Assembly (NCBI GenBank): GCA_964500725.1
Contig: CAZCNP010000001.1
Coordinates: forward strand, 257,520 to 321,519
Length of the DNA stretch: 64,000 nucleotides
Reading direction: 5' to 3'
Source: an uncultured Gammaproteobacteria bacterium
GTDB lineage: Bacteria > Patescibacteriota > Microgenomatia > Daviesbacterales > UBA10151
Under the pieces are notes generated by a model, which was not told the origin of the DNA, did no database searches, and worked only from the letters and a program-made list of their open reading frames with translations. Shown piece after piece: positions 3,063-45,823 of this stretch. Within the stretch, counting starts at the first letter, position 1. Every line of letters begins with the position of its first letter. Made by a program: the position numbers and the translations under genes.

Positions 3063-4043
3063 TTAACCTGCCATCTTGCCTGTTTTGGGGTCATATAATC
3101 CTCCAGCTACAGTCAATTCTGCTTTTAATGCTGGATAAGGATCATAACCCTCTAAAGTAATGTATTCTGGTTCAAAATCATCTAAACTTTTAAAGTTGGT
3201 ATTGAATTTAACTTTAGGAAAAGGCTTGGGCTTCCTCTTAAGCTGCTCCTTAACTTGCTCTATATGATCTTCATAAATATGCACATCTCCAAAAGTATGA
3301 ATAAACTCACCTGGCTGCAATCCTGCTATTTTTGCCAAAATGAGGGTCAAAAGAGCATAACTTGCAATATTAAAAGGAACACCTAGAAATAAATCAGAGC
3401 TTCTTTGGTAAAGCTGTAAAGATAATTTTCCATTTCTATTGCTAACTTGGTACATATTATGGCAAATAGGAAAACGGGAAGCATCCTCATATGTGGCCAT
3501 GGTATATAAATATTCTGGATTCCAAGAATTTACTATTAAGTTTTTAGCATCTGGATCATCTTTTAACTCCTGCATTACCCATTTAAGCTGATCTATTGTT
3601 CTGCCTGGAGTTCTAGTGGGCCATTTCCTCCACATCTCTCCATAAATTCTGGGCAGTTCTCCATATTTTTTGGCAAATTCCTCATCAGTCCTAATTTTTT
3701 CTACAAATTCTTCTTTGGTAAGTTTAGTAACTTTTCCCTCTTCTGCTTTTTTGGAATAAATTTTATAAGGATAGTCATCCCAGATATGAACATTATTATC
3801 TACCAAATATTTAATATTTGTTTGTCCTGACATAAACCAGTAGAGCTCCTGAATAACTCCTTTCCAGTAGACCCTTTTAGTAGTTAGAAGAGGAAAACCA
3901 ACTGATAAATCATATCTGGTTTGCTTGCCAAATAAACTATACAGGACAATCCCTGTTCCTCTATCTACCTTTTTTATCCCTTTAGTTAAAGCTTCTTTTA
4001 AAAGATCTAAATATTGGTACTCTTGATGCTTTGGTCTTGGCAT
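3063..4043 (-). CDS. thyA: thymidylate synthase (ThyA, long form with insertion)
   Basis: FPLLTTKRVYWKGVIQELYWF, PICHNMYQ (active-site Cys), LQLYQRSSDLFLGVPFNIASYALL, FGDVHIY all align to ThyA. Confidence 0.95.
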   Translation of the reverse strand: MPRPKHQEYQYLDLLKEALTKGIKKVDRGTGIVLYSLFGKQTRYDLSVGFPLLTTKRVYWKGVIQELYWFMSGQTNIKYLVDNNVHIWDDYPYKIYSKKAEEGKVTKLTKEEFVEKIRTDEEFAKKYGELPRIYGEMWRKWPTRTPGRTIDQLKWVMQELKDDPDAKNLIVNSWNPEYLYTMATYEDASRFPICHNMYQVSNRNGKLSLQLYQRSSDLFLGVPFNIASYALLTLILAKIAGLQPGEFIHTFGDVHIYEDHIEQVKEQLKRKPKPFPKVKFNTNFKSLDDFEPEYITLEGYDPYPALKAELTVAGGLYDPKTGKMAG

Positions 4044-4046
4044 AAT

Positions 4047-4616
4047 TTATACTTGTTGCTCTTCCTCATGAGGACTTACTCTCCCCCCTTGATGCTGTCC
4101 CCTGTACCCTATTGTTTGCCCCTCAATTTTATAAAAAACAATGTTACAAATTCTAGCCCCCATTTGCAGCTTAACATCAAATTCAGATAAGTTTTTGAGT
4201 CCCATGGTTAAAGCTCCTTTATAACCTGGGTCAGTTTTGGAATTTAACAAAAGTAGTCCTGCCCTAAAAAGTGAGGTCCTGGGAAATAAAACTGGCATTA
4301 AATCTTTTGGGGTATTAATAATTTCTAATGTAGAAACTAAATAATAATCTCCTGGCTTTATAACCACTTCTTCCTGTTTTCTCTTTCTACTGCTAAATTC
4401 TGCTAAAACTTCTGTTTGTACCCCTTTTCTTTTTCCCAAACCAGCTTTCCCATCAGCTTCTATAAACGCTCCCCCTGAGGTAATTTTGTATACAGCCCCC
4501 AGTCTTAAATCCACACCTACTCCTTCTGGATTCTCTAATTCTCTTTTTCCAAGGTTGTCAATTAGTCTATCTTTTTTTATTCTTCTATGGACTTCATCTA
4601 TACCAATTACAGACAT
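4047..4616 (-). CDS. dCTP deaminase / dUTPase-fold protein (second paralog)
   Basis: GVGVDLRLG and PGYKGALTMGLKN match the dCTP deaminase/dUTPase trimeric fold; adjacent to a canonical dcd. Confidence 0.6.
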   Translation of the reverse strand: MSVIGIDEVHRRIKKDRLIDNLGKRELENPEGVGVDLRLGAVYKITSGGAFIEADGKAGLGKRKGVQTEVLAEFSSRKRKQEEVVIKPGDYYLVSTLEIINTPKDLMPVLFPRTSLFRAGLLLLNSKTDPGYKGALTMGLKNLSEFDVKLQMGARICNIVFYKIEGQTIGYRGQHQGGRVSPHEEEQQV

Positions 4617-4673
4617 AATGATTTTTAAGTGGCGAAGTTTGAGCCAGTCAAAAAATAAAACAAACGAGCCACA

Positions 4674-5279
4674 TTATTTCTTTGATTTTCTTTTTCCCAT
4701 TAAATTAGATACTTGTGGTAAATCTGACCCACCATATCTATTATTTGGACTATTTTTATATGACCTCTCAACAGGAGCCGCTAACTTTTCAAAAGAAAAA
4801 GCACAAATAGGAGACCCCTCATAAATAACTAGCTTTTTACCCTTTAAAAATGTCCCAAACTCTAAGACAGGACAACCATCCCAACCAGGATCAAACCTGG
4901 CTGCAGTTGAATGGACTACCACCCCTAGCCTTGCTAAAGAACTTTTACCATGAAGGTGTCCAACAATATTGTCTGGTAAAGTTAATTTTTCTTTAGTGGT
5001 GGCAATCACAAAATCATGATCAGTTAAGATAAAAGGCTGGCCTGGCTTTAGCTCCACTAACTTCATCATCTTTTCCATATCTTCTTTGTTAGTATGTTTA
5101 GTATCTATAATATCCCACCCATCACCGGAAAATACTCTTAATTTATTACCTAGATGAAAATCAATGGTAACCTCATCTACATTCTGCTCCCAATCTTTGC
5201 TGATTGGATCAATTTTAATAATGCCTTTTTTAATATGCTCTTTAATAACCCAATCAGGGAGGGTGCCCAAAATATCCAT
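4674..5279 (-). CDS. dcd: dCTP deaminase
   Basis: FILTDHDFVIATTKEKLTLPDNIVGHLHGKSSLARLGVVVHSTAARFDPGW is typical Dcd (GRSSLARLG). Confidence 0.8.
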   Translation of the reverse strand: MDILGTLPDWVIKEHIKKGIIKIDPISKDWEQNVDEVTIDFHLGNKLRVFSGDGWDIIDTKHTNKEDMEKMMKLVELKPGQPFILTDHDFVIATTKEKLTLPDNIVGHLHGKSSLARLGVVVHSTAARFDPGWDGCPVLEFGTFLKGKKLVIYEGSPICAFSFEKLAAPVERSYKNSPNNRYGGSDLPQVSNLMGKRKSKK

Positions 5280-5338
5280 GCAAAGATCCTATTAGGTTTG
5301 ACCACTTTTTTCAAGTAGGAAGTTAAATAGTTATTAAC

Positions 5339-6064
5339 TCATATCCCTAGTATTGTTCTTAATCTCCTTAAAGCCTCTGCCTCTTTTTCGCTTATTCGTT
5401 GCCTGCTTAAGCTATGTTTTTTCTTAAGCTGCGCAAAACTAAGAGGTTTTTCAGTCAAATAGCGATCTTGTAAAATAGTTTGTTCTATTTCAGATAGCAC
5501 ACCTAGTAAGCCTGATTGTTGAGCTCTTTGAACAATATTTGCATTGTCTTGTTTAATGACTCCTTGTCTATTTGCTTTTCTAACATCAGCTGTTTCTTCT
5601 AACCATTCTCTCAGTCCTTTATTAATCTTTGCTCTTACATCAGGCGATCGCCTCACTGCTATTCTCCTAGCTCGTCTTTCCTCATCCTGCCAACTATCTT
5701 TCATTCTTTGAACCACACCTTCCCGTACTGCCTGATCCTTCCAAGTTTCTTCTTTTGTACGAGTGGGGTAACCATACTGTTTAAGCCAGTTAGAAACCGT
5801 TATTCCTCCCACATCGACAGCTCCATTACTAAGCTCAACAATATCTCTGGCCACAGCTTTAGCAGTTAAACTTGCTGAAAAATATCTTGCAAACAGATAA
5901 CTGCCCAAATCACCAACATATTCTTCGGCTTGGGCAGCAATGGGACTGATTGCTGAGGCAGTTATTGGAAGCCTCATGGTTCTAATTGCCTCCAATGAAA
6001 TGCCTGAAGTTAGTTTTTGGGGTTTATTTCCTATTTGACGTAGCGGTAAATCTCTTTCTGTCAT
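5339..6064 (-). CDS. hypothetical protein with C-terminal sigma-70 region-4-like HTH
   Basis: C-terminus LSEIEQTILQDRYLTEKPLSFAQLKKKHSLSRQRISEKEAEALRRLR resembles sigma-70 region 4.2; N-terminal 190 aa unrecognised; sits inside the tmk-dcd-thyA-folA operon. Confidence 0.5.
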   Translation of the reverse strand: MTERDLPLRQIGNKPQKLTSGISLEAIRTMRLPITASAISPIAAQAEEYVGDLGSYLFARYFSASLTAKAVARDIVELSNGAVDVGGITVSNWLKQYGYPTRTKEETWKDQAVREGVVQRMKDSWQDEERRARRIAVRRSPDVRAKINKGLREWLEETADVRKANRQGVIKQDNANIVQRAQQSGLLGVLSEIEQTILQDRYLTEKPLSFAQLKKKHSLSRQRISEKEAEALRRLRTILGI

Positions 6065-35576: not shown

Positions 35577-36407
35577 ATGCGCCACTCATTCTACGATGAT
35601 CCTCTTTACAAGAAACAACAAGCTGAAATCACACGTAAATACTGGCAACTTGGTAAATTTGATTTCAAAAGAAAATCTGAAAATAGAATTTGTCAGAATC
35701 CGCAGTGCTCTCGCCCATTTACAACAAAACCACATGAGAAGAAAAAATATTGCAGTCATGCATGCGCTACTTCATTCAGTAATAAAGAAAGAACCACTTC
35801 GTTGTCTTCCGAGAAGCTAAGCAAATTATATGCTTCTGGCCAATCAATAACCGATATCGCTAAACATTTATGTATTTCCAGCAATAAAGTTGTTTACTGG
35901 ATGAATAAGTATAGAATACAAAGACGCTCTATCAGTGATGCTGTGTATTTGAAAAACCACCCAAACGGAGATCCTTTTTCGTTTAGAACTCCTTCTTCTC
36001 TAGCAGAGTCAATGCTGTTGGGATTAGGATTAGGTCTTTACTGGGGAGAAAGCAATAAGCTCAATAAAACATCAATAAGACTAGGCAACACCGATCCGGA
36101 TCTCATGAATTATTTCATCAAATTTATGATAGATATTTGCGGGGTTAAGAAGCAAGATTTAAAATTTGGTTTACAAATATTTACTGATATAGATACCCAA
36201 ACAGCAATGAATTACTGGATGGAAGAACTTGATATCAAAAAAGAGCAATTTTACAAACCTATTATCACAAAATCGAATTCTTTAGGTACCTATAGAAAAA
36301 AGAGTAAATATGGAGTTATAATGTTAAACTACCATAATAGAAAATTAAGAGATCTATTAGTAGGAATGCTGCCGACATGGCTCAGTGGTAGAGCACGTTC
36401 TTGGTAA
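35577..36407 (+). CDS. Zn-ribbon + HTH + LAGLIDADG-like homing-endonuclease-like protein; the 3' 37 nt overlap the tRNA-Thr 5' exon
   Basis: C..C..C..C N-terminus, HTH (SITDIAKHLCISSNKVVYW), and LLGLGLGLYWGE...(LAGLIDADG-like) domain. The frame runs through the tRNA 5' half and stops at TAA in the anticodon loop. Confidence 0.5.
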   Translation: MRHSFYDDPLYKKQQAEITRKYWQLGKFDFKRKSENRICQNPQCSRPFTTKPHEKKKYCSHACATSFSNKERTTSLSSEKLSKLYASGQSITDIAKHLCISSNKVVYWMNKYRIQRRSISDAVYLKNHPNGDPFSFRTPSSLAESMLLGLGLGLYWGESNKLNKTSIRLGNTDPDLMNYFIKFMIDICGVKKQDLKFGLQIFTDIDTQTAMNYWMEELDIKKEQFYKPIITKSNSLGTYRKKSKYGVIMLNYHNRKLRDLLVGMLPTWLSGRARSW

Positions 36408-36600
36408 TTGCTCAAATTGCCCACTTAAGGAGTAATCCTTAAGTGAATTCTGAATAACGGTTAAAGATCATCTTACAAGAGATTGAGACCGTGGCGTTAT
36501 ATACGCCCGAACGACTGACAAGGAGATCCCTTAGGGGATTAAGATACAGTCTAGCCAAAAGCGAAGAACGGGGTCGCGGGTTCAATTCCCGCTGTCGGCT
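36371..36600 (+). tRNA. tRNA-Thr (anticodon GGU) interrupted in the anticodon loop by a 158-nt insertion (approx. 36406..36563) that looks like a compact group I intron
   Basis: 5' half GCCGACA-TG-GCTC-AGTGGTAGA-GAGC-A-CGTTC-TTGGTAA; 3' half GAACG-GGGTC-GCGGG-TTCAATT-CCCGC-TGTCGGC-T. The 7-bp acceptor and 5-bp anticodon stems are complementary across the insertion. The insertion contains AATTGC (P-like) and GACTG/CAGTC (P7, R/S-like AAGATACAGTC) and ends in G after an exon U. Confidence 0.7.
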
Positions 36601-38122
36601 CCCAGCCCCGAGTTGTCGGGTCCGCCCATAGGGCGGACCATTGGTTTAGAGCTTTACAGTAAACTTTTTTGTCTTTTAGTGTGAGGTCCGAGCCGAAGAT
36701 TTTTAAAGCAAGTACCTTTTTTGCCTCCATGTTGTTCCCTCTTGCGATATTAGCAACGCTCGCAGCTTCCACTATCCAGTTTTTGAAAGGTCCGAGCCAA
36801 GCATTTTTACTTTGTTGAAAAGAAAAAATCTGTTCTTCTAATTTTTTCTTTAAAGCAAGCAATTGGGATTTTTTAAGCAGATAATCATTTCTCTCAATAT
36901 CTTGGTCAAGATAGGAATCTAATAAGCGTTGGAGTTTAGAGGAAATTAGTTTAATCTCTGCTTGCTTTTCCTCAACAAACGACTGACAGGATTGGGATAC
37001 ACTCTTTTCTTCTAAGGATAACTTATCAAGCATTTTAGCTGCCCAATTTGTCTTCAAAGAAACTGTGGCTATATTATCTGAAAGCTGTCTATCTAAATCC
37101 TCTTGTCGAATAAAGGGCTCGCTACATTTAACAGTTTTGGACTTTTTCGTACAACGATAGTAAATATATGTCACATCTCTGTTAGTTCCTTGGTAATGTT
37201 TAGTCTTTTGCTCAGCAGTAATCATAAAACCACACTGCCCACAGCGAAAAAGTCCTGTAAAAGGCTTTGTTGGCCTAATATCATGCCAAGATCTACTCTT
37301 TTTGCGCCAAACTTCATGAACTTGATCCCACAGTTTCTTTGTAATGATTGGCTCATGTTTGCCTTCGTGGATCTCTCCTAAATATCTAAAATGGCCATAG
37401 TAGAATGGGTTAGATAAAATTTGTTTACTTACTCTATCAATTTTCAAAACCTTGCCATTCCTACCTACTATGCCATTTTTAGCCAAAAAGTGACATATAT
37501 CTAAAATTCTAAACTTCCTTGTTGCAAACATCTCAAAAGCTCTAACAACAGAAGGAGCTTTTCGCCTGTCAACAATAATAGTTTTAGTTCTTGAATCATT
37601 TATGTACCCAATAGGTGCAAGCTGAGGACATTCACCACGTCTTACTTTTTGGCGTAATCCTCTTTTGGTGTTTTCTGACAGAGAGTCCACGAAGTATTTA
37701 CTTTGCCCAAAGGCGATGGTGAGCATAAATTTTCCTTGAGGAGTAGGATCAAACCAGAATTGAGGAAACTTTAAGGCTTTAATTTTCTCAGTGTCAACAA
37801 GATAGATAATTTTGCCACCATCTACACTATTGCGAGCAAGTCTGTCTGGATGCCAAGCCAAAATACCAGAGGCCTCATTTTTTTCAATTCGCTCAACCAT
37901 AGAATTGAAAATTGGCCTGCCAGGTATTTTGGCAGATTGTTTCTCGATAAGTTCTTCTACTATGTATAAATCCTCACGCTTGGCAAACTCACGTAGCTCG
38001 GTAAGTTGCGCTTCAATAGATAACACCTGTTTATCCTCTACATCTGTAGACTTGCGAGCATATAATATGAATTTTTGCAAAGTATTACTGGTAGTTTGTT
38101 CCATAAAAATACAAATAAACAA
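36551..38122 (-). CDS. large serine recombinase (phage-integrase-type LSR: resolvase catalytic domain + recombinase domain + Zn-ribbon + coiled-coil)
   Basis: N-terminal LYARKSTDVEDKQVLSIEAQ (catalytic Ser), recombinase-domain features, CGQCG...C..C zinc ribbon, coiled-coil C-terminus. The last about 50 codons read through the left inverted repeat and the tRNA 3' exon, so the true stop may be earlier. Confidence 0.8.
   Translation of the reverse strand: MFICIFMEQTTSNTLQKFILYARKSTDVEDKQVLSIEAQLTELREFAKREDLYIVEELIEKQSAKIPGRPIFNSMVERIEKNEASGILAWHPDRLARNSVDGGKIIYLVDTEKIKALKFPQFWFDPTPQGKFMLTIAFGQSKYFVDSLSENTKRGLRQKVRRGECPQLAPIGYINDSRTKTIIVDRRKAPSVVRAFEMFATRKFRILDICHFLAKNGIVGRNGKVLKIDRVSKQILSNPFYYGHFRYLGEIHEGKHEPIITKKLWDQVHEVWRKKSRSWHDIRPTKPFTGLFRCGQCGFMITAEQKTKHYQGTNRDVTYIYYRCTKKSKTVKCSEPFIRQEDLDRQLSDNIATVSLKTNWAAKMLDKLSLEEKSVSQSCQSFVEEKQAEIKLISSKLQRLLDSYLDQDIERNDYLLKKSQLLALKKKLEEQIFSFQQSKNAWLGPFKNWIVEAASVANIARGNNMEAKKVLALKIFGSDLTLKDKKVYCKALNQWSALWADPTTRGWEPTAGIEPATPFFAFG
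36601..36724. repeat. left inverted repeat flanking the serine recombinase gene (65-bp perfect core 36607..36671, imperfect extension to about 36724); contains palindrome GTCCGCCC-ATA-GGGCGGAC
   Basis: Exact reverse complement of 38474..38538; the extended arms also match (gagccgaagattttt... vs gagccgaaagattt...). Confidence 0.85.
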
Positions 38123-38423
38123 AACAATAAATCAAGAAACATTTAAGTGGGAAAAGATGTGAGAGTGTAATTTACTTACCTCTCACTATTTCCACTTAAA
38201 TGGCCGCTCCGGTGCACTCAATCCAAGTTGCCTCGAATTGTCCGAAACGGCCATTAAAAAAGACAACCTTTAAGGACTGAGTGCATTTTCAATATATCAA
38301 ACTGCCAGAAAAAGACAATATAGCAAAAATTCAAATTCTTTTATTTTGGGCAAAGTTTCCGAATTTAGTAGGATTTATTAATGTGATTACTAAGAATAAA
38401 ATATCGCAAGAGATTAAAAATTA

Positions 38424-38549
38424 AAAAAGGTACTGCGGTTAAATCTTTCGGCTCTGTTTTTCTCTTTGCTCTTCAAAAAAGTTTACTGTAAAGCTCTAAA
38501 CCAATGGTCCGCCCTATGGGCGGACCCGACAACTCGGGATTGGGAGCAG
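38424..38549. repeat. right inverted repeat flanking the serine recombinase gene (partner of 36601..36724)
   Basis: caaaaaagtttactgtaaagctctaaaccaatggtccgccctatgggcggacccgacaactcggg is the reverse complement of the left core. Confidence 0.85.
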
Positions 38550-38597
38550 ATATACGATATCGCTCGAACATATTTTATCAATAACTTTTAGGGAATG

Positions 38598-38843
38598 AAA
38601 GCTTGCAAGGAAAAGGGGTAAAGGGGAAAAGGAATTGCAAGCTTCCGCTGCAAAATACGTAACCTGACGCATTATTGGTCGGCTTCCAAGGCATATCCGC
38701 TTTCCACCTTGGTACTAATCCCTACCTTAAACTTAAATCCTTCAAGGCTTTAAATCTGATGCATGCATTTGCGGTTCGCTTCGCTCAGTCCCGCTTCGCG
38801 GGACTTCGCTAAACAAAAATATATTATTTGGGGGAAAATTTCG
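38598..38843. repeat. left long terminal inverted repeat (about 250 bp, imperfect) of a 13.6-kb segment
   Basis: Reverse complement of 51927..52179: an identical outer block (aaagcttgcaaggaaaaggggtaaaggggaaaaggaattgcaagcttccgct), a divergent middle, and an identical inner block of about 110 bp (…ctgatgcatgcatttgcggttcgcttcgctcagtcccgcttcgcgggacttcgctaaacaaaaatatattatttgggggaaaatttcg). Confidence 0.85.
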
Positions 38844-38955
38844 CTTTTTCTCTTCTATATTGTTTGAATTATTTATTCTAATAAATATTTTTTATCTGAG
38901 TAACAAGTAGGATTGATACATGATTTAGATGATTTAGAGAGAAGGATTGAGGATT

Positions 38956-39729
38956 TTAGGGTTTGTAATTAGGGTAAAAATATTGCCATTCCATATTTTT
39001 GATACTTTGTTGAAAATCCTCAGGTATAGGTGCTTGTATAGTTCTCATATTTAATTTGATAGGATGTTGGAAAGTCAGTTCAAAAGCATGCAACATAGTT
39101 CTAGTAGCTCTAATAGCATCTCCACAATATAAGTAATCTCCCACAATAGGGTGTTTTAGATAGTCTGCTGAAACAACCCTAATTTGGTGGGTTCTACCAG
39201 TAACAATCTGCACCTCAGTTAAAGTTCTTATTCGTCCTTCGCCATCTTTTAAGCAAACAAGGGGTTTAAAAAAGGTGATTGAGTTTTTAGCTCCTGGAGG
39301 AATAAAACCTCTACCCGATTGTTCTGGTGTAACGATCTGCATTCTTTCAGTTTGAGTTGGAGCAATTGGTAATTCCGCTTTAAAAGGCTCTTTAAAATCC
39401 AATTCGCCTTCTAAAATCGCCAGATAGATCTTTCTCATGTTGGATCCTGCTTTGTTGGCAAATTGATCAAACAGCGAGATAAAAGCGGGACGAGTTTTGG
39501 AAAAAACCATTACACCTGTGGTATCTCTATCTAATCTGTTAGCTCGTTGCGTATTCCAACCTCTTAAGTGCTTTGCAATTTCTTCTATTCCAACTGGATT
39601 TACTTCTGAGTAATGAGAAGCAATGCCAGCGGGTTTGTTAATAATCAAAACATCCTGATCTTCATAGAGTACATGTTTATCAAAAGCATTAAGGAATTCC
39701 CAGGCTAATTGGTCTCTACCTGCAAGCAT
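38956..39729 (-). CDS. RluA-family pseudouridine synthase
   Basis: NRLDRDTTGVMVFSKT (catalytic Asp motif) and HQIRVVSADYLKHPIVGD. Confidence 0.8.
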   Translation of the reverse strand: MLAGRDQLAWEFLNAFDKHVLYEDQDVLIINKPAGIASHYSEVNPVGIEEIAKHLRGWNTQRANRLDRDTTGVMVFSKTRPAFISLFDQFANKAGSNMRKIYLAILEGELDFKEPFKAELPIAPTQTERMQIVTPEQSGRGFIPPGAKNSITFFKPLVCLKDGEGRIRTLTEVQIVTGRTHQIRVVSADYLKHPIVGDYLYCGDAIRATRTMLHAFELTFQHPIKLNMRTIQAPIPEDFQQSIKNMEWQYFYPNYKP

Positions 39730-39856
39730 TATATCAGGGTTGCCACCCCTGCGGTTGATTTGATCAAGTAACCATCTGTTAAAATCCTCAGTTGTAGTAG
39801 GATGACCTAGAAGCTCTCCAGAGGCTGAAAAAATAATAGTTCTTTTTGAGGAAATC

Positions 39857-41038
39857 TCAGCTGGATTTTTTTTCCCAACCTGCAGCTAACAATTCTTTAA
39901 CTTGCTTATTTGTTGCAAGAGGAGCTAGTACCCCAAAAACTACTAAAGCATCTTGGTCTTCAACATTAGCAACAAAGGTATTTTGTTTATCTTCTACAAA
40001 CCTAGTCAGTTTTGCTTGCAGAACTGCTTTACTGCGTTCATCTGAAGAACTTTCAACTTGATTGTTTAGGCTGTCTTGAATGCGTTGTAATTCTTCTTTG
40101 TCATCAGCTTTGATTGCAATTCCTAGTTTTTGTAAAATCTTTTGATCTACTTCCCCAAGCAGCCTACTTAAACGGTAAATTTCTGCTTTAGTTAATATTG
40201 GATCCACTTCCAAAACTTCTTGAGTAGGCGCTTCTTCTGGAGTTTGAGTTTGAATTTCAGAAGCATCAGGCTGTGCTATTTCATTAGGTGTGAATATAAT
40301 AGAACCTGAACTCTGAGCAGGTTCTGGTGATTTTGCTGGCAGAGTTACAATAGGTGTCTCAGCTGATTTTTTCGCTTTTGCTGGTCTTGGAGCTTGTTCC
40401 TTTGCTTTTGCGATTGGGATAGATGTGGCTGCTGCGGACTTGATGGACTCAACAGGCTTTGGTTCAAGGGTATAAGTAGCCTTTTCAGTCATATTGGAAG
40501 ACCTGATAGTAGCAATAGTATATCCTTGATCTACCAGTTTTGGTCTGATATTAGTTAAAAGAAGATTAGTATTGTTCTTAGAAATACCTAAGGCCTCAGC
40601 CAATTCAACATTAGTTGGTCTTTTAGTGGGGTTTGATAAAAACCAATCTACCATTTGTGTCTCTCTGGGACTTAAACCGGTGAAGATTGGTTTTACTACT
40701 GGCATTGATGTTTCAACAGGACTCTCTGGAACTGGTGCAGTACTAACAATTGGAGCGGTAGGATGTTCTTCTGGCTTGGTGACTTGGGGTATGGATCTTC
40801 CTAGGTAATCTTCAGCGGGTGGTTCTATACCCAGTCTTTTTCTGATTAAATTATTTATTTCTGGAACTATAACGTCTATTTGTCTAGCTGCTTTAATCTC
40901 TGAACGGACTTGAGTAGCCAGCGTTTCAGCTTCATCAATTCTTCCTTCTCTTAAAAGAACAGCACTTTGTTCAGATAACTGAGAGGCCCTGATCATTCTT
41001 TCTTGCTTAACAGTAAATAGAATTCTTTCAATAGCCAT
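39857..41038 (-). CDS. hypothetical protein with central Pro/Ala-rich linker and HTH-like segment
   Basis: MVDWFLSNPTKRPTNVELAEALGISKNNTNLLL looks like an HTH; low-complexity PA-rich middle; no catalytic motif recognised. Confidence 0.4.
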   Translation of the reverse strand: MAIERILFTVKQERMIRASQLSEQSAVLLREGRIDEAETLATQVRSEIKAARQIDVIVPEINNLIRKRLGIEPPAEDYLGRSIPQVTKPEEHPTAPIVSTAPVPESPVETSMPVVKPIFTGLSPRETQMVDWFLSNPTKRPTNVELAEALGISKNNTNLLLTNIRPKLVDQGYTIATIRSSNMTEKATYTLEPKPVESIKSAAATSIPIAKAKEQAPRPAKAKKSAETPIVTLPAKSPEPAQSSGSIIFTPNEIAQPDASEIQTQTPEEAPTQEVLEVDPILTKAEIYRLSRLLGEVDQKILQKLGIAIKADDKEELQRIQDSLNNQVESSSDERSKAVLQAKLTRFVEDKQNTFVANVEDQDALVVFGVLAPLATNKQVKELLAAGWEKKSS

Positions 41039-41101
41039 AATATCTTATAATAAGTGTAATTTATACACCTTCTATCTATAAAAGTCAAGCCTCAGCTGAA
41101 T

Positions 41102-44100
41102 CTAAGAGATTCTACCTTGTTTGCGTAACTTAGCTGCAACAGAAACTATCCTTAAGAGTGGTACATCCAAAGCTTCAGCGATCTGAGGATAGGTTAGAGT
41201 TGGGTTTTGATTTACAAAACTTACCAGACTATTGGTAAGTTCTTCATTTTGTTCAACAGCAGATCTTCGCTGGGTTGTTCTACCATCTCTGACAGGCTGT
41301 ATCTCACCATCTTTAATTAACTTGGCTGCAGATGAGGTGATACTGCTATAAGACTTACCTGTTAAAACTATTATTTGAGCATTACTAAAGCCACAGTTTC
41401 TAAGATCTCTGACTAGATTACCCACGATCCGTTTTCTGCCTGGTTTTTCTTCTTCTTTGTCATCTGCTTTTTGGTTTATTATTATATTTTGGGCAAGTAG
41501 TAGAGCTGCTTTTTGAATTGCCTGATGTGCTCTGTCTTCTACCTCTTTAGCTGTTATACCAAAAATAAGGCCTAGGCGTAGCTGGGTGGTCTCTGAAGAA
41601 CCAATACTTCTCAAATACATAGATAATAAACTTTGTTGCTGAGGAGAGAGTTGTTGTTTTACTTCTGGTCTTTGTATAGCTTGTTTGTAAACCTGCTTAC
41701 ACCAATCAATATCCCTGAAATTGATTTCTAATTTACCAGCTAGTTGATCCGCAATTGTGGGTGAAGAAATTGATGGCGAAGGTTCATCAGGAAAGAGTCC
41801 CAATCTAAAAGCGACTCTTTCAGCACTGGCACCACCATATAATATACCAGGCTGATCTTTTTCCCACCAACGAGTTTGCCTTTCTAATCCTTCATCACCC
41901 CTTAGTTTACCAAGACCTGCACCCTCAAGTTGTCTTACTCGTTCTCTTGTGATGCCTAACTGTCTACCAACTTCCTCTAGTGTTCTTTTCTCTCCAGCAC
42001 CATCCAAATTAAATCTTAATGTTAGTACATCGCGTTCTTTTTCATTTAAATGTTGGGCAAATGCTCGCTCGATCTCTGTTCTAAGTGCGTTGTGTTCTGA
42101 TTCTCTTGTTACTATTTCCTCAATAGATTCACTGGGATCTGATATAAGATCCCCTACGGATTTGCTGTCTTGATCATCCTCATCAAATGTTTCGTCTAAA
42201 GAGGCAACGGTCAGTATCTGAGAATAATATATGCTTAAGGCATTATTAATTGTGCCCTTAGACAGCTTAGTTTTTTCTGCCAGTAGTTGCTCCAGCTCCT
42301 CAAGGTTGGGTTCGTGTCCTCGGGCAACTGTAAATTCCCTAGCTATTTTTCTAGTTTTGCTTAATCTATCTTCTGCATGAACAGGTAATCTGATTAACCG
42401 ACTTTTATCTTTAATAGCTCGATCTATAGATTGTCTGATCCAGTGAGTGACATAGGTAGAGAATTTCGTGCCTCGGGAAACGTCAAATTTATCAATCGCT
42501 CTTAATAAACCAAAGCTGCCTTCTTGAATCAAATCAATGAGTGGTAACCCCATATCTCGATGTTTGTTGGCAATTGATGCAACTAAAAGGTAATTACAAT
42601 TTGCTACTAGATGTTGTAAATTAGGACTCTGGGCAATTGCATTTCTCATTTTGTCCCGATCTTTCTCTGGTGTAACTTCCATAAAGGTTGGATCATTAAC
42701 CAAATCAGCAATTGCGGCCCCTCTATCAAGATACTCAAAAATCAATTTTTCTAGTTGGGCTGTCAATAATGGGAAATGACTGATTTGTCTAAAAAATGCT
42801 TCTTCAACTGAGTTTTCCCCGTTTGCTCCATCTACAGTTACAGATGGTGTCTTAAGATACTGGTCAAAAAGTCCATAATCTATCTGTTCGAAAAAGGCAA
42901 GAGCTTGTTTTTGTTGTTCGCTCAAGACTAGGGGTCCCTTTTTTCTCTCTTTCAATCTTGATGTTTTGGTTACAAAACCTGTACTAAAATCAACTTGTCC
43001 TAGAGCGACAGATTCAGCAGCTCGGGCCACTGATTGATAAATATCTTTTGATTCCACAAAAAACAATCCATCCACTACTGCCTCAAACATAGTAAGTTCT
43101 GACATTAAGTGTCCAATCACCCTTTGATCGTAAGTACCTTTTTCTCTACCTAGAATATCGCCAACCAGATAAGGGATATGAACAGTGACTTGTTCTCTTT
43201 GCCCTAGACGATGAATTCGGTCGATTGCCTGGATATAGCGGCTAATAGCATTAGGAGCGATAAAAAGTATTACCTCTGTAGCTCTATTTTTTGATGAATT
43301 TAATGTAATAGATTCTCCAGCTGTTTGATAATTTCCTACAACTACCCCTAACCCCCCTTCCCCTAAAAAATTATTCTGAATGGACAGTTTTTGTTCATCG
43401 TTTAAGGTACCATCTAAAACACCTACTGGTCTGACCCCCAGAGCCCGCAATCTCTCAGCTATAGCTTTCGTACTAATAGGAGAAGTAAATCTGTTTTCTC
43501 CTTCAACAAAAGGCGTGAAGATAACTACCTTTCGACCTTCAGCTAAAAGTTGTTTAACCTTATCTGCCAACCAAGGCATTTTGACTTGTCCTTCCAATGC
43601 CAGTAATGAATAAAATAAAGAGAAAGAATTGTCTGCATTTTTGATCGCCTGCTCTGCTGCTGACTTGAAACTTTGCTGATGCTCAGGAGACATCGATCCT
43701 AAATCTATCGGTATAAATTTAGTTTCTTTGGCTGGTAACTCAGAAATCTCATCCTTACGGCGTCTCATCATTACTTTCCTTAAAACTTTATATGTTTCAA
43801 CAGGATCGTATCTAATTTTTGCAATCAGCTCTGCTGGGATAAGTTTTGGATTGATCAAATGAGCTAAAATTAATGGTTCAATTAAATCTTTAACAAAAGG
43901 AGTACTAGTTGCAAAAGATACAGTCATCTCAGGGTGATCTTTAATAAACTGATATAAAACTGCAATTCTTTTGGCTATACTTACTCCACCTATTTCTTGT
44001 AAGGGCTTACTTAAGTTTATGGCCTCTATATTTCTAGATTTAATATTATGCGCCTCATCGATTAGAGAAGCAGCAAAAGGAAATTCATTCAACAATCTTC

Positions 44101-45817
44101 TAAAGTTAGGGTGGCGAAAAATATCATAGTTGACTAAAATAACTTGTTTATCCTTAGGGCATGCTTTCAATCGAGCCCTTAACACCTTTATTCGCTCATT
44201 TAAGGTTTTACCCTTAAGTTCTTCTTCAGCTACTGAATTAATATTAACCAAATCAAATCTGTCTGATTGTAAGTGTTTAGCTATTTCTTGTTCAACATTG
44301 GCAATAACTGTTTTACTACCAACTACTAAAACTCTACCTGGTTGTTCCTGTGAACACTCTTTTTTGTCCAGTAAATTTAGAGCTCCTAACATAAAAATAA
44401 GAGTTTTACCAGTTCCAGGTTCATCAGCTAAAATATGGCCACCATTTTCGACAAACTGTTTAATTGCTTCTACCTGATGCAGTAATAAATGTTTTTTATT
44501 ACCTTCTGGATCAAGCGTGGTAAAATAGGCTATCTGAGGAGCAAAATTGGCAATCTCCGCAAAATGTTGATAGATCTGAGGAAAAACTTTAGCATCGAAA
44601 AAATCAGTTAAATTTTTGTCTACATCCTCAGAAGGCATAATCTGTTGCTGGGTATAAATTTTCAAAAATTGGGTAAAAACAGTTGGAGGAATAGTTTTTG
44701 CTCCTGGGTTTTTATCCAAATACAGATTCCAAAACGAAGAAGCAGCTTTATAAAGTTCACTTTTAACAAGAGGTTGATAGTAACCTTCTACCAAAGAAAG
44801 AATGACCTTTTTAGAAGCAGCAGCCACGGCTTGATTATCGCTATCAGCCTGCTTAAAAAATACAACTAACGGATCCGATTGAGACAAAACTTCTTTAGCT
44901 CGATGGGATTTGGTTTGTTCTACAAATTTACTGGCTGTCTGTAAGAGTTTTTTCGCTTCCACCTGGGATAGAGCACCAAAACCACTATCTGGTAATTTTA
45001 CTGATAAATAATTGGTTAGAGCATCCAAAATTAGATCCTGGCTATCTGGTCTTAAAGCTTTAGAAGTTTCTACAACGAAAGTAGCTTCTTCAGTCAGGAA
45101 CCGGCCTACAACTTCCTCGGCATGATCCTCAAAATTTTCAGGGAACTTACCGCAAAGCTGTAATTGAACATTCTCCGGAGCTTTCTGAAAAAACATCTCG
45201 AATCTAGCTTTTCTTCTGGCTGCCGGACTACCAGCTTGAGTTTCATCAGCGTTTGTAACAACATACTGTAAATCCCAAAGGATAGATTCAACATGATGAT
45301 ACTTACCAGTAGCGAATCCTCTATATATAACAGTAGGATTCTCAGGGTCAAATGAGTCTAAAAATTGAGTAAAAGTAATATTCTCCTCAAGCAAACTTAA
45401 ATCATGACCAAAATCACTCCAAAATTTAGGAGTAAATACAAAATCGGCGGATTTGAGCTTAGTTGGAATCCATAATTTTTCAGCCATTAACTGTCTTGAT
45501 TCCGAAACTGTCTGTAGAAATTCTTCTTCCCCAAGAGGGGGTTGAAATTCGGATATTAGTGCTCTAGCTACCCTTTGATCATCTGGACGGCCTGATATAA
45601 AAGAATATCCAAGTCTGAGCATAGAGTACTTACCGCCTCTACCATTGAGAGCATTAGGATTTGCGTCAGGATCGAAAAAGTCAAAGAATTGACCAATATG
45701 CATTTTCCCCCCAACTTTTTCCAAATCTTGCTTTAATCCGCGCCAAAATTCAATTGTGCTAATCCCATCTAAATTTTCAGCGGTAAGAGGAGGTTCCTTT
45801 TCCCTAAGCATAGTCAT
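41102..45817 (-). CDS. 1571-aa fusion protein: unknown N-terminal domain + SNF2/RapA-type helicase ATPase + complete sigma-70 (regions 2, 3, 4) domain + C-terminal HTH-like domain
   Basis: SNF2 motifs I ILADEPGTGKT, II LIDEAHNIKS, V NYQTAGESITLNS, VI QAIDRIHRLGQ. Sigma-70 region 2 IDLIQEGSFGLLRAIDKFDVSRGTKFSTYVTHWIRQSI; region 4.2 RTLEEVGRQLGITRERVRQLEGAGLGKLR. Confidence 0.85.
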   Translation of the reverse strand: MTMLREKEPPLTAENLDGISTIEFWRGLKQDLEKVGGKMHIGQFFDFFDPDANPNALNGRGGKYSMLRLGYSFISGRPDDQRVARALISEFQPPLGEEEFLQTVSESRQLMAEKLWIPTKLKSADFVFTPKFWSDFGHDLSLLEENITFTQFLDSFDPENPTVIYRGFATGKYHHVESILWDLQYVVTNADETQAGSPAARRKARFEMFFQKAPENVQLQLCGKFPENFEDHAEEVVGRFLTEEATFVVETSKALRPDSQDLILDALTNYLSVKLPDSGFGALSQVEAKKLLQTASKFVEQTKSHRAKEVLSQSDPLVVFFKQADSDNQAVAAASKKVILSLVEGYYQPLVKSELYKAASSFWNLYLDKNPGAKTIPPTVFTQFLKIYTQQQIMPSEDVDKNLTDFFDAKVFPQIYQHFAEIANFAPQIAYFTTLDPEGNKKHLLLHQVEAIKQFVENGGHILADEPGTGKTLIFMLGALNLLDKKECSQEQPGRVLVVGSKTVIANVEQEIAKHLQSDRFDLVNINSVAEEELKGKTLNERIKVLRARLKACPKDKQVILVNYDIFRHPNFRRLLNEFPFAASLIDEAHNIKSRNIEAINLSKPLQEIGGVSIAKRIAVLYQFIKDHPEMTVSFATSTPFVKDLIEPLILAHLINPKLIPAELIAKIRYDPVETYKVLRKVMMRRRKDEISELPAKETKFIPIDLGSMSPEHQQSFKSAAEQAIKNADNSFSLFYSLLALEGQVKMPWLADKVKQLLAEGRKVVIFTPFVEGENRFTSPISTKAIAERLRALGVRPVGVLDGTLNDEQKLSIQNNFLGEGGLGVVVGNYQTAGESITLNSSKNRATEVILFIAPNAISRYIQAIDRIHRLGQREQVTVHIPYLVGDILGREKGTYDQRVIGHLMSELTMFEAVVDGLFFVESKDIYQSVARAAESVALGQVDFSTGFVTKTSRLKERKKGPLVLSEQQKQALAFFEQIDYGLFDQYLKTPSVTVDGANGENSVEEAFFRQISHFPLLTAQLEKLIFEYLDRGAAIADLVNDPTFMEVTPEKDRDKMRNAIAQSPNLQHLVANCNYLLVASIANKHRDMGLPLIDLIQEGSFGLLRAIDKFDVSRGTKFSTYVTHWIRQSIDRAIKDKSRLIRLPVHAEDRLSKTRKIAREFTVARGHEPNLEELEQLLAEKTKLSKGTINNALSIYYSQILTVASLDETFDEDDQDSKSVGDLISDPSESIEEIVTRESEHNALRTEIERAFAQHLNEKERDVLTLRFNLDGAGEKRTLEEVGRQLGITRERVRQLEGAGLGKLRGDEGLERQTRWWEKDQPGILYGGASAERVAFRLGLFPDEPSPSISSPTIADQLAGKLEINFRDIDWCKQVYKQAIQRPEVKQQLSPQQQSLLSMYLRSIGSSETTQLRLGLIFGITAKEVEDRAHQAIQKAALLLAQNIIINQKADDKEEEKPGRKRIVGNLVRDLRNCGFSNAQIIVLTGKSYSSITSSAAKLIKDGEIQPVRDGRTTQRRSAVEQNEELTNSLVSFVNQNPTLTYPQIAEALDVPLLRIVSVAAKLRKQGRIS

Positions 45818-45823
45818 GTTATT

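What the first reader, a model, noticed from the sequence alone, without database searches (positions are those of the whole stretch)
36601..38549. Large serine recombinase gene bracketed by its own 65-bp perfect inverted repeats that start at the tRNA-Thr 3' end
The 523-aa LSR has a catalytic Ser motif (YARKST), a recombinase domain, a Zn ribbon and a coiled-coil. It lies between two inverted repeats of about 120 bp with a 65-bp perfect core. Each repeat contains the palindrome GTCCGCCC-ATA-GGGCGGAC, a plausible crossover site. The left repeat begins within a few nt of the tRNA-Thr 3' end (ggctccca vs tgctccca in the partner). Perfect identity implies recent activity. The geometry (recombinase inside its own IRs) is unlike a normal attL/attR prophage arrangement. 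It suggests a self-inverting module or a hairpin/IR-ended insertion that targets the tRNA end. The recombinase ORF also reads through the repeat and the tRNA exon, so its true C-terminus is uncertain.
Basis: seen in the sequence. Interest (0 to 1): 0.7.

Follow-up and report, generated by a model that had tools for sequence, protein, structure and literature searches.

The report
Recombinase split by its own integration
The repeat-flanked recombinase gene is one end of a ~15.6-kb mobile element inserted at a tRNA gene; the element's insertion site lies inside the recombinase gene itself, and an upside-down spare copy of that gene end sits next to it, a design common in tiny "CPR" bacteria that I could not find described.

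Summary
A 517-aa large serine recombinase (LSR, 36551-38104, minus strand) lies between inverted repeats 36595-36671 and 38474-38550 (77 nt, 65 nt perfect). The left repeat starts in the last 7 nt of an interrupted tRNA-Thr(GGT).

The repeats are not the two ends of the element, and the palindrome is not the crossover. The right repeat continues into a conserved 14-codon "tail" that would complete the LSR reading frame, then ~250 nt of conserved non-coding DNA. A second inverted core-tail-noncoding copy lies 13 kb away (51927-52227), joined to unrelated DNA just upstream of rpmG.

The best reading is a ~15.6-kb element integrated by attP x attB recombination at the tRNA 3' end. Its attP lies inside the LSR gene's 3' end, so integration cuts off the tail. 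It also carries an internal inverted spare of the whole attP region. 63 of 80 related CPR loci show the repeat-flanked LSR, at tRNAs with 23 anticodons. 13 show the full two-junction architecture. Both orientations of the LSR segment occur in assemblies.

Inversion in this genome, excision and the tail's function are inferred. No description was found; own-gene att sites are reported only for archaeal tyrosine integrases.

The parts
36371..36603 (+). tRNA-Thr(GGT), the integration target. 5' part 36371-36407, 158-nt structured insert 36408-36565, 3' part 36566-36603.
   Evidence: Read by eye. The fold keeps the acceptor, D and T arms (z = -5.6). L002 carries the same tRNA uninterrupted. Not called by ARAGORN or Rfam.
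36598..36604 (.). Common core GCTCCCA at the tRNA | element junction (attR-like: tRNA-core-rc(X)).
   Evidence: These are the only nucleotides shared by all three sites.
36595..36671 (.). IR-L, the reverse complement of block X. It encodes the LSR residues just before the core. A degenerate extension reaches 36722. It contains the palindrome 36619-36639.
36551..38104 (-). Large serine recombinase gene (517 aa plus stop) in the tail-less state. After block X it reads into the antisense tRNA, and the stop codon is supplied by tRNA sequence.
38105..38473 (-). Spacer upstream of the LSR gene. It holds a promoter-like site (38318-38291) and a small hairpin (38140-38202).
   Evidence: Consensus matches only.
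38474..38550 (.). IR-R, block X of the internal spare attP. Core TGGGAGC at 38541-38547. Palindrome at 38506-38526.
38548..38591 (+). tail1, in frame with X: (WE)QIYDIARTYFINNF, stop at 38589-38591. It can only be translated if the LSR segment is inverted.
38592..38843 (+). nc1, conserved non-coding module. Hairpin 38598-38649 has a G-rich loop GGAAAAGGGGTAAAGGGGAAAAGGAA. The module ends at ...GGGGGAAAATTTCG.
38844..51926 (.). Segment J (13 kb) between the two inverted tail-nc modules. It holds an RluA-like pseudouridine synthase, a 393-aa ORF, a 1571-aa SNF2 helicase-sigma70 fusion, 563-aa and 673-aa ORFs, and a 283-aa DUF5818 protein. Presumed cargo.
51927..52176 (-). nc2, inverted copy of nc1. 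The hairpin is 100% identical over 52 nt and the rest 93% over 178 nt.
52177..52221 (-). tail2: (WE)CIYDTARTYFINNY plus stop. This is the LSR tail cut off by integration.
52222..52227 (.). Core CTCCCA at the far junction (attL-like: D-core-tail2). Similarity to X stops here.
52228..52586 (+). Host side of the far junction: 61 nt (D), then rpmG (L33, 52289-52456) and tRNA-Trp (52513-52586).

Best explanation
The repeat-flanked LSR is the tRNA-proximal end of a ~15.6-kb integrated element (about 36598-52227). The element belongs to a family that is widespread in CPR/Patescibacteria.

Shown from sequence:
- In the LSR reading direction the element reads: D - core - tail2 - nc2 - [J, 13 kb] - rc(nc1) - rc(tail1) - rc(core) - rc(X) - spacer - LSR body - X - core - antisense tRNA-Thr.
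- The two outer junctions (D-core-tail2 and X-core-tRNA) are what one attP x attB exchange produces, given attP = X-core-tail and attB = tRNA 3' end-core-trailer.
- attP therefore lies inside the LSR gene. Integration removes a conserved 14-residue C-terminal tail, predicted to be a helix, and leaves the enzyme reading into the antisense tRNA.
- The element also carries an inverted duplicate of the whole attP region (X-core-tail1-nc1) just upstream of the LSR. That duplicate is why the gene appears bracketed by its own repeats.

Inferred:
- The free form is a circle in which two long inverted repeats, each holding a target site, separate an LSR segment from a cargo segment, as in the yeast 2-micron plasmid.
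- Integration can use either attP copy.
- Exchange between the X repeats flips the 1.8-kb LSR segment. The exchange could be made by the LSR at the cores or by host homologous recombination along the 77-220-nt identical arms. Flipping rejoins the LSR body to tail1 and makes the gene co-directional with the tRNA.
- The spare copy thus lets an integrase that truncates itself on integration recover its full length, or integrate without truncation.
- The LSR probably reads the conserved T-arm/acceptor end of tRNA genes. That would explain use of many different tRNAs, with the few core nucleotides (tRNA positions ~72-76) matched between element and target.
For: Family architecture:
- 63 of 80 genome loci have the LSR flanked by inverted repeats (median 130 nt, range 51-219). 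28 of 53 ungapped pairs are perfect.
- In 44 loci the downstream arm overlaps a convergent tRNA 3' end, usually by 5 nt. These tRNAs cover 13 amino acids and 23 anticodons.
- The last 2-7 nt of both arms track the particular tRNA end: TGGTG, TGGAG or TGGTA.

The tail is coding:
- Outside the upstream arm, 53 or more loci encode in frame the same tail, (L/I)Yxx(A/V/I)RT(Y/H)Fx(K/E)Nx, with the stop 39-45 nt after the repeat.
- Codon-position entropies are 0.85 / 0.55 / 1.05 for positions 1 / 2 / 3.
- In the window, tail1 and tail2 differ at 8 synonymous but only 3 non-synonymous codons.
- About 15 of the 120 closest homologs end with this tail. Most others read into antisense tRNA (GIEP/GVEP/GFEP).
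- Single 90%-identity clusters hold both forms, and read-throughs into at least 10 different tRNAs.

Far junction:
- The window has D-core-tail2-nc2 at 51927-52227. Similarity to the X side begins exactly at GGGATTGGGAG.
- 13 other loci have the same junction 1-3.3 kb upstream, with exact tail-nc repeats of 37-392 nt (119 nt or more in 11 of the 13). Several D sides look like tRNA trailers with intrinsic terminators.

Other points:
- All four junction types expected for the two orientations are seen in assemblies. L105 shows spacer|X|tRNA-Thr(GGT), the window's own target.
- The xGAAC motif in the tail DNA lies 4 nt further from the core than the T-loop xGAAC of the tRNA in 41 of 42 loci. This is close to the ~5-bp attP/attB half-site offset that I recall from the serine-integrase literature (Rutherford et al. 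2013, listed but not read here).
- The LSR is intact.
Against: - No empty attB site was found, so the insertion is reconstructed rather than observed.
- No read-level data were available. Inversion or excision in this genome is untested. Two contigs on record carry the identical protein, and the one I read has the window's orientation.
- Contigs with a tail on both sides of the LSR (L081, L083-85, L087) could be episomal forms, mixed orientations collapsed by the assembler, or something else.
- Segment J often holds housekeeping-like genes (ProRS, GMP synthase, alanine racemase). The window's SNF2-sigma cluster sits among UvrAB, LexA and enolase genes in another organism. J as mobile cargo is therefore uncertain.
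- No clear dyad symmetry was found around the core.
- Integrated copies are strongly biased towards the tail-less orientation, which the model does not predict by itself.
- Whether the tail-less LSR is inactive, and whether the tail matters at all, is unknown.
Confidence: 0.68

Rival explanations
1. A stand-alone invertible switch. The 1.95-kb module is a resident phase-variation device. The LSR flips its own gene between the two repeats to change its C-terminus or expression. It has no role in mobility, and the distant tail-nc copy is unrelated debris.
For: The gene is flanked by long, perfect inverted repeats. Both orientations occur in the family.
Against: Members of a single 90%-identity cluster sit at 10 or more different tRNAs, which means recent movement. 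The far junctions break exactly at the core and join to tRNA-trailer-like DNA in 13 loci and in the window. That is the signature of integration.
Confidence: 0.1
2. A small IS-like transposon (~2 kb). Its termini are the two inverted repeats and it inserts next to tRNA ends.
For: Many homologs lie on ~2-kb contigs. The repeats resemble terminal inverted repeats.
Against: Family conservation continues 100-350 nt beyond the right repeat through the tail, hairpin and nc module. The right repeat is never followed by host DNA. The short contigs are explained by assembly breaks at the repeats.
Confidence: 0.04
3. A static product of chromosome rearrangement. Segment J is ordinary host DNA. The outer tail-nc module and the inner spare arose from LSR-mediated or homologous rearrangements between element copies and tRNA or pseudo sites. 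The structure is now fixed and neither inverts nor excises.
For: J holds housekeeping-like genes in several loci. The SNF2-sigma cluster is chromosomal in L109. tail1 and tail2 have diverged 25% in the window. L002 is a truncated, evidently immobile copy at the same tRNA.
Against: The junctions D-core-tail2 and X-core-tRNA are in direct orientation. The only single-step precursor is therefore a circle containing J plus an empty site (logic applied). The same three-site design recurs in different CPR phyla with exact repeats. Both tails are under purifying selection. The 65-nt arms remain perfect although the tails have diverged.
Confidence: 0.15

Closest known systems
Large serine integrases of phages and integrative elements (SPbeta SprA, A118/LI integrase, phiC31, Bxb1)
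   Same: Same domain order: catalytic Ser domain, recombinase domain, zinc ribbon with inserted coiled coil. The junctions are compatible with attP x attB exchange at a short common core.
   Different: Sequence similarity is only distant (E about 1e-7 to SprA, 1e-6 to LI integrase). attP lies inside the integrase coding sequence. An inverted second attP is carried. Many different tRNA genes are used as targets rather than one attB.
Archaeal 'suicidal' SSV-type integrases (SSV1, pTN3, pT26-2)
   Same: The recombination site lies within the integrase's own gene. Integration into a tRNA gene splits that gene (review PMC8371274).
   Different: Those are tyrosine recombinases, and the review describes them as exclusively archaeal. 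Here the enzyme is a serine recombinase in bacteria, only the last ~14 codons are detached, and a spare inverted gene end is carried.
Yeast 2-micron plasmid FLP/FRT arrangement
   Same: In the inferred free circle, two long inverted repeats each hold a target site. They separate two unique segments, one of which encodes the recombinase, so two isomers are possible (own knowledge of the 2-micron plasmid).
   Different: FLP is a tyrosine recombinase in a eukaryotic plasmid used for copy amplification. Here the circle is inferred, the element integrates, and no replication role is known.
Tn4451/Tn5397 (TnpX/TndX) large-resolvase transposons
   Same: These are LSR-driven elements that move through a circular form, and recombinase expression depends on whether the element is excised (own knowledge).
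   Different: In those elements the circle junction creates a promoter, not a coding-sequence change. They show no tRNA targeting and no internal inverted attP.
Integration-dependent immunity of mycobacteriophages (BPs, Brujita)
   Same: attP inside a gene's 3' end, so that integration changes that protein's C-terminus (own knowledge).
   Different: There the gene is the repressor and the integrase is a tyrosine recombinase.
Hin/Gin/Cin/Pin DNA invertases
   Same: A serine recombinase, with a DNA segment between inverted sites that can flip.
   Different: Those are small recombinases lying outside the invertible segment. They use 26-bp sites and an enhancer, and they switch other genes' ends. 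The LSR matches the PHROG invertase family far less well than the integrase family.

Membership tests
Large serine recombinase (serine integrase) family | N-terminal resolvase-type catalytic domain with a serine nucleophile and the conserved Arg/Asp residues. | tested here: met
   Pfam PF00239, E = 2e-20. YARKST Ser19 and D87/R88/R91 are invariant in 19 homologs.
Large serine recombinase (serine integrase) family | C-terminal recombinase domain plus a zinc ribbon with an inserted coiled coil. | tested here: met
   PF07508 and PF13408. The AlphaFold model of P0011 has helices 355-435 emerging after the zinc ribbon.
LSR-type integrative element (attP x attB) | Two hybrid junctions that share only a short core with each other, with attP and with attB. 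| tested here: met
   X-core-tRNA, D-core-tail2 and the intact X-core-tail1 share only GGGATTGGGAG / TGGGAGC. The same holds in 13 other loci.
LSR-type integrative element (attP x attB) | Existence of an unoccupied attB and of the excised form. | tested here: inconclusive
   The empty-site scan found nothing. The identical L33 protein occurs only in the same genome. Contigs with both attP copies intact exist but could be assembly mixtures.
Self-splitting ('suicidal') integrases | The att site lies inside the integrase's own ORF, so integration fragments the gene. | tested here: met
   The core lies 14 codons before the conserved stop. About 15 of 120 homologs have the intact end, and most others read into a tRNA.
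Self-splitting ('suicidal') integrases | Tyrosine recombinase chemistry and an archaeal host, as the family is defined in the literature. | tested here: not met
   This is a serine recombinase in Candidatus Daviesbacteria. The definition comes from the review read.
Hin/Gin-type DNA invertase system | A small (~190 aa) serine invertase outside the invertible segment, short hix/gix sites and an enhancer. | tested here: not met
   The protein is 517 aa with LSR domains, lies inside the segment, and the repeats are 77-220 nt.
IS or transposon with terminal inverted repeats | The inverted repeats are the element's termini, directly flanked by target DNA. | tested here: not met
   The right repeat is always followed by the conserved tail and nc module, not by host DNA.
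2-micron-like flip-flop replicon | Recombinase-driven inversion between the repeats in a circular replicon. | not testable with these tools
   It needs reads or an experiment. Only the geometry is inferred.

The most novel reading that the evidence does not exclude
The element may control recombination direction without a separate directionality factor, by coupling the recombinase isoform to the element's state. The full-length LSR with its C-terminal helix would be made only from the free circle or after flipping onto the spare end. The integrated copy would make a tail-less enzyme with different activity. In addition, the enzyme may recognise the universal T-arm/acceptor end of tRNA genes. 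That would make it a generalist tRNA-end integrase in which only the few core bases need to match. This would be the first self-splitting integrase in Bacteria and in the serine family, with a built-in repair copy.
Probability: 0.25. Interest if true: 0.85.

Novelty: new variant of a known kind. Interest (0 to 1): 0.68.

Why it matters
A review (PMC8371274) describes integrases that carry their att site inside their own gene as exclusively archaeal, tyrosine-type enzymes. This family would extend that principle to serine recombinases and to Bacteria. It also shows a way round the self-truncation problem: an inverted spare gene end.

The family is abundant in CPR/Patescibacteria, with thousands of homologs. 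It sits at many tRNA genes and breaks many metagenome assemblies, so recognising it improves annotation and assembly of these genomes.

A compact LSR that accepts many tRNA ends, with a short matching core, is a testable lead for how serine integrases choose targets and for engineering them.

The tail-on / tail-off design also gives a direct experimental handle on LSR directionality.

Tried and rejected
- Palindrome as crossover: rejected. Similarity breakpoints among the three sites fall in the core at the outer edge of the repeats. The palindrome is conserved as a hairpin with different sequences in different subfamilies. It scores as terminator-like only when read from outside inward.
- Element of ~2.2 kb ending at ...GAAAATTTCG: this was my working model. 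I dropped it when the second tail-nc copy was found. That point is the nc/cargo boundary.
- Dyad symmetry of the sites: not detected, so I make no claim of palindromic att sites.
- Phage origin: no DNA match in the phage collection. PHROG hits for the cargo are uninformative.
- Rfam: no known RNA family in the module, the tRNA insert or the nc hairpin.
- Empty site: the metagenome pattern scan for the L091 locus found nothing. The exact L33 look-up returned only the source genome.
- Same-locus inversion: L090 versus L091 (99.4% identical) shows body-X-tail-nc contiguity, but in a different context beyond nc. It does not prove inversion at one locus.
- Contig breaks at k-6 beyond the repeat ends: noted but not interpretable.
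- Literature: five full-text searches found no description of this family. Tycheposons are a different kind of tRNA-targeting element.
Full report
**1.
The window comes from a Candidatus Daviesbacteria (CPR/Patescibacteria) genome; the LSR protein is 100% identical to an NCBI entry.
- Inverted repeats 36595-36671 and 38474-38550 are 77 nt and 96% complementary. The mismatches sit at the outer edge, leaving 65 perfect nt. A weaker extension reaches 36722 / 38423.
- The palindrome GGTCCGCCC-ATA-GGGCGGACC occurs only in these two arms, against 0 expected by chance.
- Between the arms lies a 517-aa LSR gene (ATG 38104, minus strand) with Resolvase, Recombinase and Zn_ribbon_recom domains.
- The catalytic residues are invariant. 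The AlphaFold model of a 72%-identical relative has canonical LSR architecture. The nearest solved structures are SPbeta SprA and the A118/LI integrase, both distant.
- The ORF has no stop inside the repeat. It runs into the antisense 3' part of a tRNA-Thr(GGT).
- That tRNA carries a 158-nt structured insert in its anticodon loop and is therefore missed by ARAGORN and Rfam. L002 has the same tRNA uninterrupted.

**2. It is a member of a large family.**
The LSR has thousands of CPR homologs at 60-75% identity, many on ~2-kb contigs. I fetched 80 genome loci.
- 63 have the LSR flanked by inverted repeats (median 130 nt, up to 219). 28 of 53 ungapped pairs are perfect.
- In 44 loci the downstream arm overlaps the 3' end of a convergent tRNA, usually by 5 nt. 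These tRNAs cover 23 anticodons.
- The last nucleotides of both arms (TGGTG, TGGAG or TGGTA) follow the discriminator and acceptor end of the particular tRNA.
- Within single 90%-identity protein clusters, the read-through C-termini come from at least 10 different tRNAs. The elements have therefore moved recently.

**3. The right repeat is not an end.**
- Read outward, the flank of the upstream arm is conserved in all subfamilies. In frame with the repeat it encodes a 13-15-residue tail, (L/I)Yxx(A/V/I)RT(Y/H)Fx(K/E)Nx, with the stop 39-45 nt after the repeat.
- Variation is of the coding type: entropies are 0.85 / 0.55 / 1.05 at codon positions 1 / 2 / 3, with Arg CGA/AGA/CGC and Thr ACN.
- About 15 of the 120 closest homologs actually end with this tail. 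Most of the rest end in antisense-tRNA peptides such as GIEP. Both forms occur within the same 90% clusters.
- The tail is predicted to be a helix following a disordered linker.
- Beyond the tail, 100-350 nt of non-coding DNA are conserved within subfamilies. This includes a hairpin whose stem covaries and whose G-rich loop is conserved.

**4. The other junction.**
- A search for the loop motif found a second exact copy at 52137.
- The region 51927-52227 is an inverted copy of core-tail-nc. The hairpin is 100% identical over 52 nt, the rest of nc is 93% over 178 nt, and the tail is 75%.
- Similarity to the X side begins exactly at GGGATTGGGAG. Upstream of that point the DNA is unrelated and leads into rpmG and tRNA-Trp.
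- tail1 (WEQIYDIARTYFINNF*) and tail2 (WECIYDTARTYFINNY*) differ at 8 synonymous and 3 non-synonymous codons. Both have therefore been kept as coding sequence.
- Scanning whole flanks of the related loci found the same thing in 13 of them: D-core-tail2-nc2, then 1-3.3 kb (J), then rc(nc1)-rc(tail1)-rc(core)-rc(X)-spacer-LSR-X-core-antisense tRNA. The tail-nc repeats are exact over 37-392 nt, 119 nt or more in 11 of the 13.
- Several D sequences are hairpin-plus-T-run terminators when read downstream of the tRNA. That is what a native tRNA trailer looks like.

**5. What this means.**
- D-core-tail and X-core-tRNA are the two hybrid products of one exchange between attP = X-core-tail and attB = tRNA end-core-trailer. 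They lie in direct orientation, so the single-step precursor is a circle containing J plus an empty site.
- attP therefore lies inside the LSR gene, 14 codons before its stop, and integration detaches the tail.
- The element additionally carries an inverted copy of the entire attP region next to the LSR promoter side.
- The reconstructed attB in the window is tRNA-Thr ...GGCTCCCA | ATCCCTATTTCTGG... rpmG.
- The exchange lies within CTCCCA/TGGGAG, not in the palindrome.

**6. Two orientations.**
All four junction types expected for the two orientations occur in assemblies.
- rc(tail)|rc(X)|spacer and body|X|antisense tRNA make up the window's state.
- body|X|tail occurs in L038, L051, L081, L083-85, L087 and L090.
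- tRNA|rc(X)|spacer occurs in L006, L017, L029, L030 and L105. L105 is at tRNA-Thr(GGT), the window's own target.

These could arise by integration through either attP copy, by flipping after integration, or from free forms. Contigs with a tail on both sides always run into a contig end inside the repeat, so mixtures cannot be told from episomes. In the window the 65-nt arms are perfect although the tails have diverged 25%. This suggests continuing exchange or gene conversion between the arms (inference). The one other contig I read that carries the identical protein has the same orientation as the window.

**7. Target recognition (inferred).**
The xGAAC motif in the tail DNA lies 19 nt from the repeat end. 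The T-loop xGAAC of the tRNA lies 15 nt from it. The difference is +4 nt in 41 of 42 loci. This is close to the ~5-bp attP/attB half-site offset that I recall from the serine-integrase literature (Rutherford et al. 2013; the paper appears but I did not read it). I found no clear dyad symmetry, so this remains a lead.

**8. Open points.**
- J is not clearly cargo. In other loci it holds ProRS, GMP synthase, alanine racemase, pilin, transporters and similar genes.
- The window's 1571-aa SNF2-sigma70 protein is rare: 9 homologs, the best at 41% identity. Its gene trio is chromosomal in L109.
- No empty site was found.
- The functions of the tail, the X hairpin and the nc hairpin are unknown.
- Integrated copies are strongly biased towards the tail-less state.

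**9. Comparison and novelty.**
The enzyme is an LSR, and the junctions fit LSR integration. The closest concept is the archaeal SSV-type 'suicidal' integrase, whose att site lies in its own gene and which integrates into tRNA genes. A review calls these exclusively archaeal, and they are tyrosine recombinases. The inferred circle resembles the 2-micron plasmid layout. Five literature searches found no description of this family. I rate it a new variant of a known kind: an LSR integrative element with attP inside its own gene, an inverted spare of that gene end, and generalist tRNA-end targeting.

Noticed in passing
window 36371-36603, with the upstream ORF 35577-36407: tRNA-Thr(GGT) carries a 158-nt highly structured insert in the anticodon loop (36408-36565; z = -5.6). 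There is no Rfam match and ARAGORN does not call the tRNA. A 276-aa ORF resembling a homing endonuclease (weak HNH-endonuclease PHROG hits, a LAGLIDADG-like LGLGLGLYWGES motif) runs into the tRNA 5' part and stops at the TAA of the anticodon loop. L002 has the same tRNA without the insert.
   Followed up: partly
window 38598-38649 and 52118-52169; also L001, L004, L050, L087, L014, L060, L037, L083: The hairpin in the nc module has a covarying stem and a conserved G-rich loop (GGAAAAGGGGTAAAGGGGAAAAGGAA). The loop occurs in either orientation even between close relatives: L037 is G-rich while L014 and L060 are C-rich. The loop segment may itself flip, or the hairpin may act in both directions.
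   Followed up: partly
window 41102-45817 (minus strand): A 1571-aa fusion of an SNF2-family helicase with a sigma-70 factor. Only 9 homologs reach E < 1e-30 among 5.8 billion proteins, the nearest at 41% identity. A conserved gene trio (about 560 aa, the fusion, about 390 aa) also occurs in L109.
   Followed up: partly
L051 5380-5650; protein P0077: A ~65-nt antisense tRNA 3' fragment is sandwiched between X-core and a short X-end-like sequence plus the tail. It looks like a recombination scar or a captured tRNA piece inside the LSR 3' end.
   Followed up: no
L002 (Microgenomates Gr01-1014_7), about 3770-5640: At the same target (tRNA-Thr(GGT) next to tRNA-Thr(TGT)) the LSR and X are present, but the upstream repeat, tail and nc module are missing. 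This is a truncated, presumably immobile copy.
   Followed up: partly
proteins P0002, P0033, P0083, P0094, P0097: 865-904-aa gene calls begin with a different LSR N-terminus (MKYIAYARKSTDEKDKQVLSID...). Only P0002 ends with this family's C-terminal stretch, and P0033 shares part of it. Possible explanations are tandem or nested recombinase genes, or fused gene calls.
   Followed up: no
L091-L097 (contigs carrying P0016): Two independent assemblies end exactly k-6 nt beyond the outer end of a repeat (121 nt at both ends of a k127 contig, 135 nt for a k141 contig). This suggests alternative sequence contexts share only ~5 nt of the core. Not interpreted further.
   Followed up: no
window 48000-52000: GC skew is positive here (+0.13 and +0.23) while it is negative across nearly all the rest of the window (one slight positive bin, +0.04, at 26-28 kb). 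This is the part of J next to the far junction.
   Followed up: no
L069 2538-3711; L063 3961-5565: These are the smallest complete elements. One or two cargo ORFs (an alpha/beta-hydrolase-like protein in L069; a methyltransferase plus an HD-domain protein in L063) lie between exact inverted tail-nc modules (154 nt at 100% in L069).
   Followed up: partly
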